Source of the DNA: a virus
Direction: 5' to 3' (one strand)
DNA: 37,455 bases
Virus genome (UHGV): UHGV-0248180
Below the pieces are notes generated by a model. It was not told the origin of the DNA and searched no databases. It saw only the letters and a program-made list of their open reading frames with translations. The translations under genes and the position numbers were made by a program. Below are positions 7,644-13,548 of the stretch, one piece after another. Position 1 is the stretch's first letter; every line of letters starts with the position of its first letter.

Positions 7644-8189
7644 ATGAGAAAAGCACTACTCGCTGGTCTATTGGCCATTTCAATGATGGCACATAGCTCC
7701 GAGCATACTTTCAGTAATGTCCAACTCGATAACATGCGTTACGCGTATCAATTCGGGGAACAATTTTCTAAGGATGGAAAATATAAAACACACAAAAATA
7801 TCCACAAGAGCGGATTAGGTCATATAATGGCTGCTATTTTATGGCAAGAAAGCTCTGGCGGAGTTAATTTAAAATCTAAACCAAAGCATCACGCCTATGG
7901 AATGTTCCAAAATTATTTGCCTACTATGCGAGCAAGAGTTAAGGAACTTGGTTATAATATGACCGATGCTGAAATAAAAAGAATGTTGAATAAACGGTCC
8001 AATTCAGCTTCCTGGGCGTACATTGAACTTTCTTATTGGTTAAATATACATAAGGGCGATATAAGAAAAGCAATATCCTCTTATAATTCGGGATGGAATG
8101 TTAAAGCAGGTTCTAAATATGCTTCTGAAGTCCTAGAAAAGGCTAATTACCTTAAAAATAATAAACTTTTGGAAATAGTAAATGACTAA
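7644..8189 (+). CDS. Secreted lytic transglycosylase-like protein (SLT domain), signal peptide
   Basis: N-terminal signal peptide; SLT motifs ES (ILWQESSGG), GMFQ (GLMQ-like), YNSG (AYNAG-like). Confidence 0.75.
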   Translation: MRKALLAGLLAISMMAHSSEHTFSNVQLDNMRYAYQFGEQFSKDGKYKTHKNIHKSGLGHIMAAILWQESSGGVNLKSKPKHHAYGMFQNYLPTMRARVKELGYNMTDAEIKRMLNKRSNSASWAYIELSYWLNIHKGDIRKAISSYNSGWNVKAGSKYASEVLEKANYLKNNKLLEIVND

Positions 8190-8523
8190 AATTTTGGTTT
8201 TATGTATAGGATTAATTTCATTTTCTGCGTTAGCAGATACATCATATACTGAAATTAGAGAATATGTAAACCGTACTGCAGCGGATTATTGCGGGAAAAA
8301 TAAAGCATGTCAAGCTGAATTTGCGCAGAAATTAATATATGCATATAAAGACGGAGAAAGAGATAAATCAAGCAGATACAAAAATGATACATTGTTAAAA
8401 CGATATGCTAAAAAGTGGAATACCTTAGAATGTTCAGTTGCGAAGGAGAAAGATAAAGCCGCTTGTCATTCAATGGTTGACCGTTTGGTAGATTCTTATA
8501 ATCGAGGATTGAGTACTAGATGA
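8182..8523 (+). CDS. vs: hypothetical protein with N-terminal signal-like segment; positional candidate for vs (valyl-tRNA synthetase modifier)
   Basis: Synteny (regB - vs.1 - vs in T4) and size only; sequence identity not verified. Confidence 0.45.
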   Translation: MTKILVLCIGLISFSALADTSYTEIREYVNRTAADYCGKNKACQAEFAQKLIYAYKDGERDKSSRYKNDTLLKRYAKKWNTLECSVAKEKDKAACHSMVDRLVDSYNRGLSTR

Positions 8524-8987
8524 TTGTAAAATATATCAAGGGCGATATTGTCGCCCTTTTCGCTGAAGGTAAAAATATTGCGCATGGATGCAATTGTTTT
8601 CATACTATGGGTTCAGGCGTAGCGGGTCAATTAACCAAAGCTTTCCCTAAAATTTTGGAAGCTGATAAATTACAGACTGAATGGGGTGATGTAACTAAAC
8701 TCGGTTCTTACTCAGTCTATGAAAAATACTTTAGGACTCATAAAGCGTATTGCTTCAACCTTTATACTCAATTTCAACCAGGGCCAAATTTTGAGTATTC
8801 CGCTTTAATGAATTGTATGTTAGAATTAAATGAGTTTGGTGAAAATAAACTGATTAAACCTACAATCTATATGCCTAGGATTGGTGCAGGCATAGGTAAA
8901 GGGAACTGGGATATTATTGAGGGGATTTTAGATACATATTCCTCTAAATTAGAAATTGTGATTGTTGATTGGGAACCGTTATTATGA
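8520..8987 (+). CDS. Macro-domain protein (putative ADP-ribose binding/hydrolase)
   Basis: Motifs HGCNCFHTMGSGVAGQ and PRIGAGIGKGNW resemble macro-domain diphosphate-binding loops (NAAN..GGGV and GIGTGIYG). Confidence 0.7.
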   Translation: MIVKYIKGDIVALFAEGKNIAHGCNCFHTMGSGVAGQLTKAFPKILEADKLQTEWGDVTKLGSYSVYEKYFRTHKAYCFNLYTQFQPGPNFEYSALMNCMLELNEFGENKLIKPTIYMPRIGAGIGKGNWDIIEGILDTYSSKLEIVIVDWEPLL

Positions 8988-9196
8988 ATATACATTATCC
9001 ACATCCGTATGACCCAAAGAATAAGGCAGTAATTATTCGTCAATGGGAACGCATTTGCCGTACTAAATGTCCAATTAATAGTCCACATGATGTAGATAAA
9101 GACTACATTGGAACATTCGTTGAATATACCTTTATTGATAAGAAAGGTCGTAAACAGCATGTAGAAGAATACTGCTTAAAGGTGACATGGTTATGA
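8984..9196 (+). CDS. hypothetical protein (70 aa)
   Basis: ORF, ATGA overlap with upstream stop. Confidence 0.45.
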   Translation: MNIHYPHPYDPKNKAVIIRQWERICRTKCPINSPHDVDKDYIGTFVEYTFIDKKGRKQHVEEYCLKVTWL

Positions 9197-9399
9197 GCCA
9201 AACTAGTATTCTTAAAAATGCCCACTGTGAAAAGTGTAAATGGCCGGTTGTTTTTGCTTTATGCAACGATGAAATGGCTTGTGATTTCGATTATTGGTGC
9301 TATTGTTCTAATAAAGGATGCATCAATCATAAAGGTGAAGGATTTTATTCGGGATTTTATCCTTATCCAGATTTCGTTAAAGAAGGTAAACCGAAATGA
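9193..9399 (+). CDS. hypothetical Cys/His-rich small protein (possible zinc-binding)
   Basis: ORF; multiple Cys/His (CEKCKW..CNDEMACDFDYWCYCSNKGCINH). Confidence 0.45.
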   Translation: MSQTSILKNAHCEKCKWPVVFALCNDEMACDFDYWCYCSNKGCINHKGEGFYSGFYPYPDFVKEGKPK

Positions 9400-9569
9400 A
9401 TAGTTCTGAGTTACAATATGAAGTGTTACGTGAACTTGATAATTTAATTGAACTCGCTGTTAATAAAGGTTTTGCCATTGGAATTGGTCAAAAAGATACT
9501 GATCATTTAACTGTGGAAATATTTAAGCAAAAGCGAATTATTTTAAAACTTTTGGAAATTAATATATGA
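9396..9569 (+). CDS. hypothetical small protein (57 aa)
   Basis: ORF below track cutoff, ATGA overlaps at both ends. Confidence 0.4.
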   Translation: MNSSELQYEVLRELDNLIELAVNKGFAIGIGQKDTDHLTVEIFKQKRIILKLLEINI

Positions 9570-9751
9570 GTTTAAGCAAAGAACAAAAAGACAAACTCTT
9601 TTCTCTTATCCACGAAGTTATGGATAAAAACAGTGAATTGGAAAAAGTTTGTGATGAATGCGGTCCTTTTAATGCAAATGAATACGAAGAACTTTCTAAA
9701 GAATTCGATAATAAAGAACAAGAACTCATTGATTATATAAATTCTTTATGA
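9566..9751 (+). CDS. hypothetical small acidic helical protein (61 aa), member of a small paralog family
   Basis: ORF; shares N-terminal xxEQKxK(L/I)F motif and acidic C-terminus with 9748 ORF. Confidence 0.5.
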   Translation: MSLSKEQKDKLFSLIHEVMDKNSELEKVCDECGPFNANEYEELSKEFDNKEQELIDYINSL

Positions 9752-9936
9752 TTACTCGCGAACAAAAGAACGAAATATTATTTTTAGTTGGTGAAATTAT
9801 TAGTTTAGAAAAGGATTTGTCTTTTGAATTATCTTCTGATTATGGAGATGCCGAAACATATTACGAATTAGTAAAATTTATCGATAAAGCTGAAAATGAT
9901 TTAGAAACATATTTAGAAAATTTAACTAAGGACTAA
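9748..9936 (+). CDS. hypothetical small acidic helical protein (62 aa), paralog of 9566 ORF
   Basis: ORF; ATGA overlap. Confidence 0.5.
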   Translation: MITREQKNEILFLVGEIISLEKDLSFELSSDYGDAETYYELVKFIDKAENDLETYLENLTKD

Positions 9937-9937
9937 A

Positions 9938-10519
9938 ATGGCGAGTTTAATTTTTACTTATGCAGCAATGAATGCTGGAAAATCTGCTTCTCTTTTGACT
10001 GCTGCACATAATTATAAAGAACGCGGAATGGGTGTATTAGTTCTTAAACCTGCTATTGATACTCGCGATTCTGTCTGTGAAGTCGTTTCTCGCATTGGAA
10101 TTAAACAGGAAGCGAATATTATTACGGATGATATGGATATTTTTGAGTTCTATAAATGGGCTGAAGCACAAAAAGATATTCATTGCGTATTTGTAGATGA
10201 AGCTCAGTTTTTAAAAACTGAACAGGTGCACCAATTAAGCCGAATTGTTGATACATATAATGTTCCTGTTATGGCTTATGGATTAAGGACTGATTTCGCT
10301 GGAAAATTGTTTGAAGGTTCTAAAGAACTTTTAGCGATTGCAGATAAACTTATTGAACTAAAGGCAGTTTGTCATTGCGGCAAAAAAGCGATTATGACAG
10401 CTCGATTAATGGAAGATGGAACACCAGTTAAAGAAGGTAATCAAATCTGTATTGGTGATGAAATTTATGTTTCTTTGTGCAGAAAACATTGGAATGAATT
10501 AACTAAAAAGCTTGGTTAG
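9938..10519 (+). CDS. tk: Thymidine kinase (193 aa)
   Basis: P-loop MNAGKS, zinc ribbon CHCGKKA..CRKH; matches T4 Tk from memory. Confidence 0.95.
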   Translation: MASLIFTYAAMNAGKSASLLTAAHNYKERGMGVLVLKPAIDTRDSVCEVVSRIGIKQEANIITDDMDIFEFYKWAEAQKDIHCVFVDEAQFLKTEQVHQLSRIVDTYNVPVMAYGLRTDFAGKLFEGSKELLAIADKLIELKAVCHCGKKAIMTARLMEDGTPVKEGNQICIGDEIYVSLCRKHWNELTKKLG

Positions 10520-10528
10520 TGCAAAAGT

Positions 10529-10536
10529 TATAAATA
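10529..10536 (+). promoter_or_regulatory. Candidate T4 late promoter box TATAAATA
   Basis: Exact octamer 26 nt upstream of ATG 10562. Confidence 0.4.
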
Positions 10537-10561
10537 GGTTTATCTAACTAAAGGGGTATAT

Positions 10562-10774
10562 ATGCTACAATTAACTGAAAAGCAACTTCGCAATCTTACT
10601 GTGCTTCAATTAGATGAAATTCGTAGGGAAGTTGGAAATATCATTTCAGCTTTGCGTCGAGAAGTATCACTCAACCAATCTCCGGCAGACTATACTAGAT
10701 TGCGAAATTTTGAAAAATACCTTGATAAAGTTAAGGCCGTGCATCGGCATAAAGTAAATACAGGACAAAAATGA
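10562..10774 (+). CDS. hypothetical protein (70 aa)
   Basis: ORF; GGGG RBS. Confidence 0.5.
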
Positions 10775-10786
10775 TAGGAGGCCTTT

Positions 10787-11080
10787 ATGGCCTTAAAAGC
10801 AACGGCACTTTTTGCCATGCTAGGATTGTCATTTGTTTTATCTCCATCGATTGAAGCGAATGTCGATCCTCATTTTGATAAATTTATGGAATCTGGTATT
10901 AGGCACGTTTATACACTTTTTGAAAATAAAAGCGTAGAATCGTCTGAACAATTCTATAGTTTTATGAGAACGACCTATAAAAATGACCCGTGCTCTTCTG
11001 ATTTTGAATGTATAGAACGAGGCGCGGAGATGGCACAATCATACGCTAGAATTATGAACATTAAATTGGAGACTGAATGA
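10787..11080 (+). CDS. rI: Lysis-inhibition antiholin RI (97 aa) with N-terminal signal-anchor
   Basis: Translation MALKATALFAMLGLSFVLSPSIEANVDPHFDKFMESG... matches T4 RI as I recall it; position next to tk as in T4. Confidence 0.8.
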   Translation: MALKATALFAMLGLSFVLSPSIEANVDPHFDKFMESGIRHVYTLFENKSVESSEQFYSFMRTTYKNDPCSSDFECIERGAEMAQSYARIMNIKLETE

Positions 11081-11463
11081 AATTCAGCGACTTTTCACAA
11101 AGTGGAAAACCTTCAAAGGCAGATGAATACTTAGGTTTATTAATGGCTGCACAAGCTTATTTTCATTCTGCACATTTTGAAACTAAAAGTTATGCTAGAC
11201 ACAAAGCATACGATTTTATTTTCTCCGAGTTGCCAGATTTGATTGATAAATTTGGTGAGCAATATTTTGGGTATTCTGGTAGAAAATACACACCTTCAAT
11301 TCCAGATGCCAGTAAACTTCCTACCGACACAATTAAAATGATTGATCGCATACTAGACCAATCTAACAGCATTTATAAAGAAATGCCTCCAGCCATTCAA
11401 AGCACGATAGATGATATTACTGGAATGTTTTACCAGAGTAAGTATCTTCTTTCCCTCGAATAA
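11077..11463 (+). CDS. hypothetical protein (128 aa)
   Basis: ORF, ATGA overlap; followed by strong terminator. Confidence 0.55.
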
Positions 11464-11467
11464 CATT

Positions 11468-11490
11468 AGTCTCCTTCGGGAGACTTTTTT
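11468..11490 (+). terminator. Rho-independent terminator (AGTCTCC-TTCG-GGAGACT + T6)
   Basis: 7-bp stem, UUCG loop, T tract. Confidence 0.8.
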
Positions 11491-11500
11491 CATTTTACCG

Positions 11501-11530
11501 GTTTACTTTCCGTCTGAGCCGTGGTACTAT
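11501..11530 (+). promoter_or_regulatory. T4 early promoter (GTTTAC-N18-TGgTACTAT)
   Basis: GTTTAC 11501-11506; TGg TACTAT 11522-11530. Confidence 0.65.
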
Positions 11531-11558
11531 ACAACCATCGGATAAAGAGGAGAACATC

Positions 11559-11747
11559 ATGAAAATTGAAGCACTTAATCAAGAAGGAAATATCTACGTC
11601 ATCATTAATGGTGATTTTTTCGTCGACATGGATGAAGTTACTAGTGAAGAACTTGTAGAATTTCTTAAGAAACGTTATAATATGTGTGATGAAGTTGCAA
11701 CTCACATGGCGTGTGCAATATTCTCTCTTTCATATGTGGTGGAATAA
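11559..11747 (+). CDS. hypothetical protein (62 aa)
   Basis: ORF with GGAG RBS (11548-11551). Confidence 0.5.
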
Positions 11748-11950
11748 TGATTAGTATCGAACAAGCGGATAAAATTAAGGAATTGGTAGCTTTAATTCGT
11801 AAAGCAGACGAGGAACTTAGTGACTTTGCTTGGTTTTCGTCAGGCATTGCAAATAAAGGCATTGATGAACTTGAAGCTAAAGTTGATAATGCTTTAGAAG
11901 CGTTAGATATGTTTCTTGATGAAATTATCGATCATAATACGAGAGTTTAA
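11747..11950 (+). CDS. hypothetical small acidic helical protein (67 aa), paralog family
   Basis: ORF; TAATG overlap; junction GGTGGAATAATGA. Confidence 0.5.
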   Translation: MISIEQADKIKELVALIRKADEELSDFAWFSSGIANKGIDELEAKVDNALEALDMFLDEIIDHNTRV

Positions 11951-11952
11951 GT

Positions 11953-12147
11953 ATGCTGACACGTGAACAGTTTGAAAAAATCATTAAATTAGCACGTGAT
12001 ATTGAAATAGATTCATACCAATTAGCAGTTGAGCATTGTGAAGGATATTCATACGATGGTATAGAAGCAGCTAAAAAGGATTTGGATAAATCTAAAGCTA
12101 AGTTAGTTCAATATCTTGAAATGATTAGGTGGAATAATGAAAACTGA
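11953..12147 (+). CDS. hypothetical small acidic helical protein (64 aa), paralog family (MLTREQFEKIIKL)
   Basis: ORF. Confidence 0.5.
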   Translation: MLTREQFEKIIKLARDIEIDSYQLAVEHCEGYSYDGIEAAKKDLDKSKAKLVQYLEMIRWNNEN

Positions 12148-12310
12148 AAAGCAGATGTTTTTAATGAAGCTAATTGAAGAATATGCTAATGCAGTTTCTG
12201 ACTATGAGTATTCTTCTCGGGAAAGAGGTACAGCTTTCGCAAAGGAAGAAATGAAAATCATGGTTGATGCTCACACAAAGCTTCAAAATTTTATTGAAAA
12301 CAACATTTAA
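12137..12310 (+). CDS. hypothetical small protein (57 aa), paralog family
   Basis: ORF below track cutoff; same GGTGGAATAATGA junction as at 11735. Confidence 0.4.
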   Translation: MKTEKQMFLMKLIEEYANAVSDYEYSSRERGTAFAKEEMKIMVDAHTKLQNFIENNI

Positions 12311-12312
12311 CG

Positions 12313-12342
12313 GTTTACAAGTTGGCAAGGTTATGGTATAGT
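12313..12342 (+). promoter_or_regulatory. T4 early promoter (GTTTAC-N18-TGgTATAGT)
   Basis: GTTTAC 12313-12318; TGg TATAGT 12334-12342. Confidence 0.65.
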
Positions 12343-12370: not shown

Positions 12371-12475
12371 ATGAAAGTTTTGCTTGTTGTGTATGTGATG
12401 ATTCAATATAATTACCCAATGTTTACTTATAATTTGGTGAACAACATTATTGATATGGTTCAGAGGAGTATGTAA
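12371..12475 (+). CDS. possible small hydrophobic leader peptide (34 aa)
   Basis: Strong GAGGAG RBS 12361-12366 and ATG 12371 just downstream of promoter; very short. Confidence 0.3.
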   Translation: MKVLLVVYVMIQYNYPMFTYNLVNNIIDMVQRSM

Positions 12476-13020
12476 TGATGGGAGAGGCGAAACGATTAGT
12501 ATTAGAAGTTAGTTCACTTTTTGGTGAATTGGCTATAGAAAAAGTAAATAATATGTATCGTTTGACGCAAGAAGACGATATGCTATATTTTACGCCTAGT
12601 GAAATCATTCATTTAACCCAAATTGAAAATCCTTATACTGATAAAATTGTAAGCATTAATGATGAGCATAAAATTCATTTTTATTCTTCATGCCCAGGAT
12701 TTAATATTGAAAGCGAGTCAATATGCTTATCAGTTATCCATTGGGATAGTTTTATAGATAAGATTAAATATTTTTATTATTCTAATGAAAGAAAACACAG
12801 TTTAAAATGGTTTAAAAATTGCAATGCTATTATTACTAACGCTTGCAATCAGAATGATGAAACTGTTTTAAATGTATCAAAATGTTATGAAGATGGAGAT
12901 GTCTTAACTATTCGTCAAATTGATGATTTTCGATCGCATATTGTCACATTTACCAAAGACGAAGCTATTGCGCTAAAGACTTATCTTGATTCTGTCATTC
13001 CAACTATGATTTCAAAGTGA
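12475..13020 (+). CDS. hypothetical protein (181 aa), paralog of 13027 ORF
   Basis: ORF with GGAG RBS; C-terminal (A/E)AxALKTYLDSVIPTM resembles EAMIKYLTTVTPSM of the next gene. Confidence 0.6.
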   Translation: MMGEAKRLVLEVSSLFGELAIEKVNNMYRLTQEDDMLYFTPSEIIHLTQIENPYTDKIVSINDEHKIHFYSSCPGFNIESESICLSVIHWDSFIDKIKYFYYSNERKHSLKWFKNCNAIITNACNQNDETVLNVSKCYEDGDVLTIRQIDDFRSHIVTFTKDEAIALKTYLDSVIPTMISK

Positions 13021-13026
13021 GGAAAT

Positions 13027-13548
13027 ATGTATATTTCAAGTGAAAGTGGTTTAATTCGTGTTGAATTTAAAAATGATATTTTCCTTATTCAAGGAGATGA
13101 TATTATTAAAATGAGTTATGACGAAATCAAGAAAATTTGTCATACTCTTGAAAGCCGTGGAAACGTAAATGCTGTTATTGATATTGGTGATTTATGGGTA
13201 ACGCTTTATAAAGTATCCGAAGGATTTAACATTGAAGATGAAAATAACATTTTAGCTATTGATAAAAGAACTGATTTGTTTGATGTATTAAAAGCCTATG
13301 AACAGTCAAACGGTGGAAGAAAAGCTGCATTGATTTATCAAAAACCGCATTCATGTGGAACTGCTTCAATCATTTCAAATATTGAAGACGAATCTGATAC
13401 TTATATGTGTGTTTTAAAAGCTGGTGGTGACCGTCATCCGGATTTTATTTCTATTCGTCAAAACAATGGAGAAATTTCATTATCAAAATCAGAAGCTGAA
13501 GCCATGATTAAGTATTTAACAACCGTTACGCCTTCAATGAAAGGATAA
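13027..13548 (+). CDS. hypothetical protein (173 aa), paralog of 12475 ORF
   Basis: ORF; shared C-terminal motif. Confidence 0.6.
   Translation: MYISSESGLIRVEFKNDIFLIQGDDIIKMSYDEIKKICHTLESRGNVNAVIDIGDLWVTLYKVSEGFNIEDENNILAIDKRTDLFDVLKAYEQSNGGRKAALIYQKPHSCGTASIISNIEDESDTYMCVLKAGGDRHPDFISIRQNNGEISLSKSEAEAMIKYLTTVTPSMKG

What the first reader, a model, noticed from the sequence alone, without database searches (positions are those of the whole stretch)
9396..12310. Small acidic helical protein family in two clusters flanking tk and rI
At least five ORFs of 57-67 aa (9566, 9748, 11747, 11953, 12137) share an N-terminal pattern (x(S/T)xEQxxKIxxL) and acidic helical C-termini. Two junctions use the identical sequence GGTGGAATAATGA. 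Small acidic helical phage proteins are frequently DNA mimics or inhibitors of host nucleic-acid enzymes.
Basis: inference. Interest (0 to 1): 0.5.

Follow-up and report, generated by a model that had tools for sequence, protein, structure and literature searches.

The report
Five-copy T4 helical-hairpin protein family

Summary
The window is a Tequatrovirus (T4-like) genome segment, 98% identical to Shigella phage Sf24. The five ORFs are the annotated T4 genes tk.2, tk.1, mobD.4, mobD.3 and mobD.2a. All five pass the gathering threshold of Pfam DUF7438. PHROGs independently groups four of them. A profile built without any mobD.2a-type sequence still finds mobD.2a as the only extra hit in the window. 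AlphaFold2 gives confident two-helix hairpins (pLDDT 94-96). The 13-mer GGTGGAATAATGA occurs twice (0.07 expected by chance) and is a ribosome-binding site plus start codon.

The genes are real. dN/dS is 0.06-0.5, and published T4 proteomics detects Tk.1, Tk.2, MobD.3 and MobD.4 as early or middle proteins. A family member sits directly upstream of tk in five, and weakly a sixth, of the Tevenvirinae genera sampled. Copy number ranges from 1 to 6.

No function is known, and no solved structure matches specifically. Acidity is a trend rather than a rule: two of the five have pI 5.0-5.3, and 38% of the window's small ORFs have pI below 4.5.

My best guess, by inference, is that these are non-essential early protein-binding modules for host takeover or counter-defence. 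The DNA-mimic idea is untested. The family is known, the function is open, and interest is low to moderate.

The parts
9566..9751 (+). tk.2 orthologue: 61 aa, pI 4.34, DUF7438 member. Its ATG overlaps the stop of ORF 9396-9569 (ATGA).
   Evidence: ORF. RB32/T4 annotation. Pfam PF24219 E = 5.3e-19, 68.8 bits. phrog_653. AF2 pLDDT 93.6, helices 5-30 and 37-60.
9748..9936 (+). tk.1 orthologue: 62 aa, pI 4.15, DUF7438 member. Its ATG overlaps the tk.2 stop (ATGA), and its stop lies 1 nt before the tk start codon.
   Evidence: Pfam E = 4e-14, 53.1 bits. phrog_653. hhalign to the tk.2 group E = 1.3e-5.
11747..11950 (+). mobD.4 orthologue: 67 aa from the ATG, pI 4.27, DUF7438 member. Its start overlaps the mobD.5 stop (TAATG). 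This is the long-loop allele; T4 itself has a 60-aa allele.
   Evidence: Pfam E = 2.5e-15, 57 bits. phrog_653. hhalign to the mobD.3 group E = 1.6e-5.
11953..12147 (+). mobD.3 orthologue: 64 aa, pI 5.04, DUF7438 member. The loop CEGYSY is conserved into Dhakavirus.
   Evidence: Pfam E = 1.5e-17, 64.1 bits. phrog_653.
12137..12310 (+). mobD.2a orthologue: 57 aa and intact (truncated to 38 aa in T4), pI 5.27. It is the most divergent DUF7438 member and overlaps the mobD.3 end by 11 nt.
   Evidence: Pfam E = 3.9e-16, 59.6 bits. PHROGs places it in phrog_2758. A leave-out profile gives E = 1.9e-4. AF2 pLDDT 95.6, helices 4-30 and 36-56.
11738..11750 (+). GGTGGAATAATGA at the mobD.5/mobD.4 junction: a Shine-Dalgarno-like GGTGGA, a 4-nt spacer and the ATG. 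The upstream stop (TAA) overlaps the ATG.
   Evidence: 2 matches, 0.07 expected. Sequence read directly.
12128..12140 (+). The same 13-mer at the mobD.3/mobD.2a junction. It lies in a different frame relative to the upstream gene, which runs on to 12147.
11468..11493 (+). Intrinsic-terminator-like hairpin AGTCTCC-TTCG-GGAGACT followed by a T run, after rI.-1. It separates the tk-rI unit from the mobD.5-mobD.2a unit.
11501..11530 (+). T4-early-type promoter-like site: GTTTAC, an 18-nt spacer, then TGG-TACTAT, upstream of mobD.5. It is the presumed promoter of the mobD.5-mobD.4-mobD.3-mobD.2a unit.
   Evidence: Read directly from the sequence. A mobD.5 promoter transcript is reported in T4 (PMC1702504).
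12314..12342 (+). The next promoter-like site (TTTACA, 17 nt, TATAGT, with TG) immediately after mobD.2a. It marks the 3' limit of the four-gene unit.

Best explanation
Shown:
- The five ORFs are the tk.2, tk.1, mobD.4, mobD.3 and mobD.2a genes of a T4-type (Tequatrovirus) phage.
- They are paralogues of one family, catalogued as Pfam DUF7438 and PHROG 653/2758.
- Each is predicted to fold as a single antiparallel two-helix hairpin of 57-67 residues.
- The conserved features are an N-terminal helix-capping motif M-(I/L)-(T/S)-x-E-Q..(K)(I/L)..L and a C-terminal L..(Y/F)(L/I)(E/N)x(I/L).
- They lie in two tightly packed co-directional gene strings with overlapping or abutting stop and start codons.
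- In T4 they are transcribed early, and four of the five are detected as proteins.
- They evolve under purifying selection but faster than tk.
- mobD.3, mobD.2a and the genes downstream of them to nrdC.11 were lost together in viable genome-reduced T4 mutants.
- Adjacent copies are the most similar to each other, which indicates origin by tandem duplication. The copy next to tk is the most widely conserved.

Inferred mechanism: these are non-enzymatic accessory proteins that work by binding other proteins. The hairpins probably pair into four-helix bundles, as homo- or hetero-dimers. Each paralogue would present a different loop and surface to a different host target, or possibly a phage target, during early host takeover or counter-defence. 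Overlap in function among the copies would hide single-gene phenotypes.
For: - Identity: 98.4% DNA identity to Shigella phage Sf24 and 96-98% to T4, T6 and RB32, with the gene names taken from RB32 and T4.
- Family membership: Pfam, PHROGs, and my leave-out profiles and hhalign comparisons.
- Fold: AF2 pLDDT 93.6 and 95.6, two helices each.
- Not an enzyme fold: only generic helical hairpins match, and the only whole-chain analogue of the same size is the dimeric Rop.
- Expression: T4 transcriptome and proteome classes, the mobD.5 promoter transcript, and the promoter and terminator sites.
- Selection: dN/dS 0.06-0.53, against 0.01-0.15 for tk.
- Dispensability: the nrdC.11-mobD.3 block is deleted in viable genome-reduced T4 mutants.
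- Turnover typical of accessory, arms-race genes: 1-6 copies per genome, a sixth copy in some tequatroviruses, tk.2/tk.1 chimeras, a truncated mobD.2a in T4, and loop indel alleles of mobD.4.
- Neighbourhood: tk.4, 0.6 kb upstream, is the anti-DarTG2 factor AdfM.
- Narrow distribution: only 37 hits at E <= 1e-3 among 1.84 billion representative proteins, nearly all about 60 aa.
Against: - No binding partner, oligomeric state or phenotype is known for any member.
- The main text of the HIDEN-SEQ transposon study of T4 on several defence systems and clinical isolates does not name any of these genes among its hits.
- Dimerisation is inferred only from size and fold.
- The conserved position directly upstream of tk could point to a role in nucleotide metabolism instead.
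- Guilt by association with anti-defence neighbours is weak in a genome where most early genes are uncharacterised.
Confidence: 0.5

Rival explanations
1. DNA mimics. Acidic hairpin dimers imitate the phosphate backbone of duplex DNA and block a host DNA-binding enzyme such as a restriction enzyme or nuclease, in the manner of T7 Ocr, T7 Gp5.9 or T4 Arn.
For: - tk.2, tk.1 and mobD.4 carry net charges of -9 to -10.5 and have 24-26% Asp+Glu, the highest fractions in the window.
- The family median net charge is -8.4, and 76% of members are at or below -6.
- The genes are early and dispensable.
Against: - mobD.3 and mobD.2a have net charges of only -3.4 and -2.4.
- 14% of family members are above -4, and one is slightly positive.
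- 38% of small ORFs in the window have a pI below 4.5, so acidity does not discriminate.
- No sequence or fold link to any known mimic was found.
- The surface charge geometry was not examined.
Confidence: 0.15
2. Partners or regulators of thymidine kinase or the phage deoxynucleotide-synthesis machinery. The tk-proximal copy is co-translated with Tk and binds it or its complex.
For: - A family member is the gene immediately upstream of tk in Tequatro-, Mosig-, Dhaka-, Gelderland- and Jiaodavirus, and weakly (E = 0.003) in Tegunavirus.
- Its stop overlaps or abuts the tk start in the window and in the Gelderlandvirus and Jiaodavirus loci; gaps of about 10 and 50 nt separate them in Mosig-/Dhakavirus and in Tegunavirus.
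- Other small ORFs of the region come and go.
- Tk.1, Tk.2 and Tk share the same RNA and protein timing class in T4.
Against: - The mobD-side copies and distant metagenomic members are not next to tk.
- Four other T4-like genera (Krischvirus, Slopekvirus, Biquartavirus, Muldoonvirus) have tk but no member within 5-8 kb.
- Gene order in this region is broadly conserved anyway.
Confidence: 0.1
3. Rop-like nucleic-acid binders: hairpins that dimerise into a four-helix bundle and bind structured RNA.
Against: - There is no Pfam Rop match at E <= 1, and identity is 7-14%.
- The loop is 5-10 residues rather than a tight turn.
- The strong negative charge of most members argues against RNA binding.
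Confidence: 0.04
4. The database labels are correct: the proteins are 'helicase loaders' or 'molybdopterin-guanine dinucleotide biosynthesis protein MobD'.
For: - Some GenBank records label all copies 'helicase loader'.
- mobD.4 and mobD.2a hit phrog_4859 'helicase loader' weakly, at 7e-6 and 3e-3.
- RefSeq names mobD.4 orthologues 'MobD'.
Against: - Neither Pfam nor NCBIfam matches any helicase-loader or Mob family at E <= 1.
- A 60-residue hairpin cannot contain those domains.
- In T4, mobD names a homing-endonuclease gene, so the molybdopterin label is a confusion of gene symbols.
- The loader label appears only as the name of phrog_4859 and as product names in some GenBank records. No paper found here supports it.
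Confidence: 0.01
5. The protein products do not matter. The ORFs are filler, or serve only to couple translation along the operon.
For: - The stops and starts are tightly coupled.
- The mobD.3 and mobD.2a genes are dispensable.
- Truncated and chimeric alleles circulate.
Against: - dN/dS is 0.06-0.53 across tequatroviruses and between genera.
- The sequence motifs are conserved down to 20-30% identity.
- The hairpin predictions are confident.
- The proteins are detected in infected cells.
Confidence: 0.05

Closest known systems
T4 Tk.1, Tk.2, MobD.4, MobD.3 and MobD.2a (Pfam PF24219 DUF7438; PHROG 653 and 2758)
   Same: The window's genes are orthologues with the same order and spacing and 96-98% DNA identity. 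They pass the family threshold. Function is unknown in both.
   Different: The window carries an intact 57-aa mobD.2a and a 67-aa long-loop mobD.4. T4 has a 38-aa truncated mobD.2a and a 60-aa mobD.4. The window also has two extra ORFs (9187-9399 and 9396-9569) between tk.3 and tk.2 that T4 lacks.
ColE1 Rop (repressor of primer), a 63-aa helical hairpin that forms a homodimeric four-helix bundle
   Different: There is no sequence relation. The loop is longer. The oligomeric state is unknown. There is no evidence of RNA binding, and most members are strongly acidic.
Small acidic phage DNA mimics and inhibitors (T7 Ocr, T7 Gp5.9, T4 Arn), recalled from my own knowledge
   Same: They are small, early, dispensable phage proteins, and three of the five here have a comparably low pI.
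   Different: No homology or specific fold match was found. Acidity is not uniform in the family. No target is known.
T4 Tk.4 (AdfM), the macrodomain anti-DarTG2 factor encoded 0.6 kb upstream
   Same: It lies in the same early transcription region and is likewise a dispensable accessory gene. In the window it is at 8520-8987.
   Different: It is an enzyme domain of 155 aa, unrelated in sequence and fold. Only proximity links it to the hairpin family.

Membership tests
Pfam PF24219 (DUF7438) | Whole-protein HMM score at or above the gathering cut-off (25 bits) | tested here: met
   The scores are 68.8, 53.1, 57.0, 64.1 and 59.6 bits for the ORFs starting at 9566, 9748, 11747, 11953 and 12137. 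ORF 9396, rI.1 and mobD.5 give no match.
Pfam PF24219 (DUF7438) | The relationship holds when a member's own orthologues are left out of the profile, so it is not circular | tested here: met
   hhalign between orthologue-group profiles gives 1.3e-5 (tk.2-tk.1), 1.6e-5 (mobD.4-mobD.3), 2.9e-5 (tk.1-mobD.3) and 1.3e-4 (tk.1-mobD.4). A profile with no mobD.2a-type sequence scores mobD.2a at E = 1.9e-4, and by hhalign at 2.5e-4 against 0.51 for its reversed sequence.
Pfam PF24219 (DUF7438) | A single domain spanning the whole protein of about 57-67 aa, folding as a two-helix hairpin | tested here: met
   The matches cover profile positions 1-57 of 57. AF2 gives helices 5-30 and 37-60 for tk.2, and 4-30 and 36-56 for mobD.2a, with pLDDT 93.6 and 95.6.
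PHROG phrog_653 | Best PHROG match for tk.2, tk.1, mobD.4 and mobD.3 | tested here: met
   E = 1.2e-24, 8.3e-22, 2.3e-22 and 2.2e-25.
PHROG phrog_653 | Best PHROG match for mobD.2a | tested here: not met
   mobD.2a falls in phrog_2758 (2.9e-35) and does not hit phrog_653 at E <= 0.01. PHROGs splits what Pfam merges.
DNA-mimic proteins (Ocr, Arn, Gp5.9 type) | Strong, uniform negative charge | tested here: inconclusive
   Three of the five have pI 4.15-4.34, and two have pI 5.04 and 5.27. The family median charge is -8.4, but 14% of members are above -4. Among the window's small ORFs, 38% have a pI below 4.5.
DNA-mimic proteins (Ocr, Arn, Gp5.9 type) | Surface carboxylates arranged like DNA phosphates, and binding in the DNA site of a target enzyme | not testable with these tools
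DNA-mimic proteins (Ocr, Arn, Gp5.9 type) | Sequence or fold relation to a known mimic | tested here: not met
Rop (ColE1 repressor of primer) | Match to the Rop sequence family | tested here: not met
   No Pfam Rop hit at E <= 1, and 7-14% identity in the structural alignments.
Rop (ColE1 repressor of primer) | Helical hairpin of about 60 aa | tested here: met
Rop (ColE1 repressor of primer) | Homodimeric four-helix bundle that binds RNA | not testable with these tools
Helicase loader (database label; phrog_4859) | Match to a characterised helicase-loader family | tested here: not met
   No such Pfam or NCBIfam hit at E <= 1. There are only weak hits of mobD.4 (7e-6) and mobD.2a (3e-3) to the 61-residue phrog_4859, which carries that label.
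MobD / molybdopterin-guanine dinucleotide biosynthesis (RefSeq label) | Match to Mob protein families | tested here: not met
   No Pfam or NCBIfam hit. In T4, mobD is a homing-endonuclease gene.

The most novel reading that the evidence does not exclude
The DUF7438 hairpins are a diversifying, partly redundant battery of inhibitors of host defence or nucleic-acid enzymes. The strongly acidic members (tk.1, tk.2, mobD.4) would act as DNA-mimicking four-helix-bundle dimers, and the milder ones (mobD.3, mobD.2a) would bind other targets through their conserved loops. Redundancy among the 5-6 copies would explain why single-gene screens have not flagged them.
Probability: 0.2. Interest if true: 0.6.

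Novelty: already known. Interest (0 to 1): 0.25.

Why it matters
About a third of T4 proteins, and about 70% of its early proteins, are still uncharacterised (PMC9697503). This family supplies five of those genes in one phage and is conserved next to tk across at least five Tevenvirinae genera.

If the copies prove to be counter-defence or host-takeover binders, they would add a compact two-helix inhibitor scaffold with natural paralogue diversity.

As it stands, the practical value is tidying. The five genes are one family. The labels 'helicase loader' and 'molybdopterin-guanine dinucleotide biosynthesis protein MobD' attached to them in public records are unfounded. Functional screens should delete all copies together.

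Tried and rejected
- Pairwise phmmer among the five proteins gives only weak scores (best 15 bits), so pairwise similarity alone would not have settled the question. Profiles were needed.
- Reversed-sequence controls for hhalign are imperfect for helical hairpins. One reversed pair reached 4e-4. I therefore relied on the leave-out HMM ranking within the window and on two independent libraries.
- Extra members were tested and rejected: ORF 9396-9569 (hhalign 0.14), rI.1 (0.012, probability 3.7%) and mobD.5 (0.13). Each belongs to a different PHROG.
- DNA-level repeats between paralogues: none beyond the 13-mer and a few short, chance-level matches. The duplications are therefore old.
- The search for related loci with the divergent alignment failed because no stretch was conserved enough.
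- Literature: no paper mentions DUF7438, mobD.4 or mobD.2a. The search for 'tk.1' and 'tk.2' was swamped by unrelated uses. Neither the HIDEN-SEQ nor the CRISPRi-ART main text names these genes. The Miller et al. T4 genome review is not held.
- No family member lies within 5-8 kb of tk in RB49, Slopekvirus, Biquartavirus or Muldoonvirus.
- The idea that loops are generally hypervariable was rejected. It holds for mobD.4 and tk.1, but the mobD.3 loop is more conserved than its helices.


Full report
**Where the window comes from**

The stretch 9300-12400 matches 549 phage records. Of these, 478 match at 95-99% identity, nearly all of them Tequatrovirus (T4, T6, RB32, Sf24 and others). The best match is Shigella phage Sf24 at 98.4% over the full length.

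Transferring the RB32 and T4 annotation gives the gene order on the + strand:
- tk.4 (8520-8987)
- tk.3 (8984-9196)
- two ORFs that T4 lacks (9187-9399 and 9396-9569)
- tk.2 (9566-9751)
- tk.1 (9748-9936)
- tk (9938-10519)
- rI.1 (10562-10774)
- rI (10787-11080)
- rI.-1 (11077-11463)
- mobD.5 (11559-11747)
- mobD.4 (11747-11950)
- mobD.3 (11953-12147)
- mobD.2a (12137-12310)

The five ORFs of the finding are therefore long-annotated T4 genes of unknown function.

**Checking the observation**

The N-terminal pattern is real. [13 protein letters not shown] (mobD.4) and M-L-T-R-E-Q-F-E-K-I-I-K-L (mobD.3) fit it exactly. tk.2 and tk.1 fit with conservative changes. mobD.2a (M-K-T-E-K-Q-M-F-L-M-K-L) fits only loosely.

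Pairwise scores between the proteins are weak, at most 15 bits, so I used profiles:
- Pfam DUF7438 (PF24219) matches all five over its whole 57-position model, at 53-69 bits against a 25-bit threshold. It matches none of ORF 9396, rI.1, mobD.5, rI or rI.-1.
- The Pfam seed may contain the T4 orthologues, so I ran independent tests. PHROGs, which is built differently, puts tk.2, tk.1, mobD.4 and mobD.3 into phrog_653 and mobD.2a into phrog_2758.
- Profiles made from one orthologue group at a time find the other groups as their best non-self hits in the window.
- Profile-profile comparison gives 1.3e-5 (tk.2-tk.1), 1.6e-5 (mobD.4-mobD.3), 2.9e-5 (tk.1-mobD.3), 1.3e-4 (tk.1-mobD.4) and 3e-4 (tk.2-mobD.3).
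- mobD.2a is the weak link. Its best pairwise value is 0.01. However, a broad profile with no mobD.2a-type sequence scores it at E = 1.9e-4. It is the only additional hit among the window's 540 six-frame segments, with the next at 0.48. hhalign gives 2.5e-4, against 0.51 for its reversed sequence.

A full-family profile finds exactly five members in the window.

The 13-mer GGTGGAATAATGA occurs at 11738 and 12128, with 0.07 expected by chance. It consists of a Shine-Dalgarno-like GGTGGA, four bases and the ATG. The two copies sit in different frames relative to the upstream gene. The motif is therefore a translation-initiation signal, not a remnant of coding sequence. No other DNA-level repeat links the paralogues.

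**Structure**

AlphaFold2 was run with family alignments.
- tk.2: pLDDT 93.6, pTM 0.74, helices 5-30 and 37-60.
- mobD.2a: pLDDT 95.6, pTM 0.79, helices 4-30 and 36-56.

Each protein is a single antiparallel helical hairpin. The conserved (S/T)-x-E-Q lies exactly at the start of helix 1, where a Ser/Thr cap and acidic residues stabilise a helix N-terminus. This reading is inference from established helix-capping rules.

Fold searches give nothing specific:
- Foldseek against PDB has a best E of 0.6, to ZraP, FrmR/CsoR, Rop and AcrIIC4 among others.
- BFVD returns only uncharacterised ~60-aa proteins of T4-like phages.
- No PDB sequence relative exists.

**Are the genes expressed and selected?**

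The published T4 time-course data (PMC9697503, supplementary files 4 and 6) give these classes:
- MobD.3 and MobD.4 are 'early RNA, early protein'.
- Tk.1 and Tk.2 are 'early RNA, middle protein', together with Tk, Tk.3 and Tk.4.
- mobD.2a, which is truncated to 38 aa in T4, and mobD.5 have early RNA but no protein class.

A transcript from a mobD.5 promoter is seen 3 min after infection and is insensitive to RegB (PMC1702504).

In the window, the mobD unit is laid out as follows:
- A terminator-like hairpin at 11468-11485 with a T run follows rI.-1.
- A T4-early-type promoter-like site follows at 11501-11530: GTTTAC, 18 nt, then TGG-TACTAT. I read this directly from the sequence; it falls below the scan tool's threshold.
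- The four genes come next.
- Another promoter-like site lies at 12314-12342.

All gene junctions are tight:
- ATGA overlaps at 9566 and 9748.
- A 1-nt gap between tk.1 and tk.
- A TAATG overlap at 11747.
- A 2-nt gap before mobD.3.
- An 11-nt overlap at 12137.

dN/dS against RB32, T4, Dhakavirus JS10, Mosigvirus PhAPEC2 and a Gelderlandvirus is 0.06-0.53 wherever dS is measurable. For tk it is 0.01-0.15. Amino-acid divergence is about two to three times that of Tk.

**Distribution and dynamics**

An exhaustive HMMER search of 1.84 billion representative proteins finds only 37 hits at E <= 1e-3. Nearly all are 57-67 aa.

I scanned the tk neighbourhood in other genera with the family profile.

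| Genus (phage) | Family members near tk |
|---|---|
| Tequatrovirus | two directly upstream of tk, three in the mobD cluster, and a sixth between mobD.2 and mobD.1 in some phages |
| Mosigvirus | one upstream of tk, plus a mobD.2a-like copy after rI |
| Dhakavirus | one upstream of tk, plus a mobD.3-like copy |
| Gelderlandvirus | two upstream of tk |
| Jiaodavirus | one upstream of tk |
| Tegunavirus | one weak hit upstream of tk (E = 0.003) |
| Krischvirus (RB49), Slopekvirus, Biquartavirus, Muldoonvirus | none within 5-8 kb of tk |

Two divergent metagenomic members lie in runs of small ORFs. One is on a T4-like contig that also carries terminase, gp32 and a RecA-type (UvsX-like) recombinase gene. 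Neither is next to tk.

Adjacent copies are the most alike. This fits tandem duplication from an ancestral copy beside tk.

Public sequences also show several signs of ongoing turnover:
- tk.2/tk.1 fusion genes (P0005 in phage UFV-AREG1, and P0008).
- The truncated T4 mobD.2a.
- Several loop-length alleles of mobD.4.

Loop variability is not a general property. The mobD.3 loop (CEGYSY) is more conserved than its helices.

**Function**

No study assigns a function to any member.
- No paper in the library mentions DUF7438, mobD.4 or mobD.2a.
- nrdC.11-mobD.3 is among the blocks lost in viable genome-reduced T4 mutants (PMC9825161).
- A transposon study of T4 on several defence systems and clinical isolates identifies tk.4 as an anti-DarTG2 macrodomain (AdfM), vs as needed in minimal medium, and nrdC.1 as anti-Septu. 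Its main text names none of the hairpin genes.

Given a 60-residue hairpin with no catalytic fold, early expression, dispensability, paralogue expansion and allele turnover, I think the most likely mechanism is stoichiometric binding to other proteins. The hairpins probably act as four-helix-bundle dimers, in host takeover or counter-defence, with partial redundancy. This is inference. I put about 0.4 on the mechanism and above 0.95 on the identity and family assignment.

**The DNA-mimic proposal**

Three of the five are strongly acidic, with net charges of -9 to -10.5 and 24-26% Asp+Glu, the highest in the window. mobD.3 and mobD.2a carry only -3.4 and -2.4. Across 118 sampled family members the median charge is -8.4, but 14% are above -4. 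Among the window's small ORFs, 38% have a pI below 4.5. Acidity is thus a family tendency that does not discriminate in this genome. The proposal remains possible for the acidic subset but is untested.

**Other rivals**

- A link to Tk is suggested by the conserved, translationally coupled position upstream of tk. Against it are the non-tk copies and the tk-bearing genera that lack the family.
- The Rop resemblance is one of generic fold only.
- The public labels 'helicase loader' (from phrog_4859) and 'molybdopterin-guanine dinucleotide biosynthesis protein MobD' have no support in Pfam or NCBIfam. The second is a gene-symbol confusion, because T4 mobD is a homing endonuclease.

**Verdict**

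However, it rediscovers a catalogued family (DUF7438) in a genome 98% identical to known phages. Novelty: already known. Interest: low to moderate. The interest lies mainly in the family being an unstudied, multi-copy, early-expressed scaffold sitting among recently discovered counter-defence genes.

Noticed in passing
window 8520-8987 (+): This is the tk.4 orthologue, a 155-aa macrodomain protein just upstream of the family. In T4 it was recently shown to be the anti-DarTG2 factor AdfM (bioRxiv 10.1101/2025.11.20.689424). The same paper finds the neighbouring vs gene (8182-8523) conditionally needed in minimal medium.
   Followed up: partly
window 9187-9399 and 9396-9569 (+): Two small ORFs lie between tk.3 and tk.2: a 70-aa Cys-rich one (phrog_2306) and a 57-aa one (phrog_3452). 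Both are present in RB32 and Sf24 but absent from T4, whose match to the window starts only at 9565. This is an insertion/deletion polymorphism inside the tk operon. Neither ORF is a DUF7438 member.
   Followed up: partly
public records of orthologues (e.g. L002 5184-5366; L011 3123-6220): Wrong product names are propagating. RefSeq calls mobD.4 orthologues 'molybdopterin-guanine dinucleotide biosynthesis protein MobD'. Some GenBank records call all six copies 'helicase loader'. No domain evidence supports either name.
   Followed up: yes
L011 6038-6220 (Shigella phage vb_GEC_SH_GT); absent from the window: Some tequatroviruses carry a sixth DUF7438 paralogue, 60 aa, starting MTREQANKLMDLI. 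It lies between mobD.2 and mobD.1 and is related to RB69 'Tk.1'. The window goes from mobD.2 straight to mobD.1.
   Followed up: partly
proteins P0005, P0008, P0100, and L002 5184-5366: Natural rearranged alleles exist. There are in-frame tk.2/tk.1 fusion genes: P0005 (UFV-AREG1), joined in register in the loop, and the shorter P0008. T4's mobD.2a is cut to 38 aa. T4's mobD.4 has a 7-residue shorter loop than the window's.
   Followed up: partly
window 12475-13020 and 13027-13548 (+): Two adjacent ORFs of 181 and 173 aa are both mobD.1-like. RB32 annotates the second as 'similar to mobD.1'. Both end in ...EA.A.K.YL..V.P.M, so this is another tandem duplication right next to the hairpin cluster. 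In RB32 the following ORF is noted as replacing the mobD homing endonuclease.
   Followed up: no
window 10573-10584 and 12142-12153 (+): An identical 12-mer, AACTGAAAAGCA, encodes the N-terminal T-E-K-Q of both rI.1 and mobD.2a. rI.1 is basic (pI 10.2) and is not supported as a family member (hhalign E = 0.012), so the match is probably chance.
   Followed up: partly
window 11077-11463 (+): rI.-1 (Pfam DUF5856, E = 9e-33) is labelled 'starvation-inducible transcriptional regulator' in RefSeq and 'metalloregulation DNA-binding stress protein' (Dps-like) in a Slopekvirus record. A published study links rI.-1 and rI.1 to lysis inhibition (PMC2962797, listed).
   Followed up: no
window 11547-11552 (+): The mobD.5 ribosome-binding site GAGGAG contains a GGAG, the core of the RegB cleavage motif. 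Yet the T4 mobD.5 transcript is reported as RegB-insensitive and is used as an internal control (PMC1702504).
   Followed up: no
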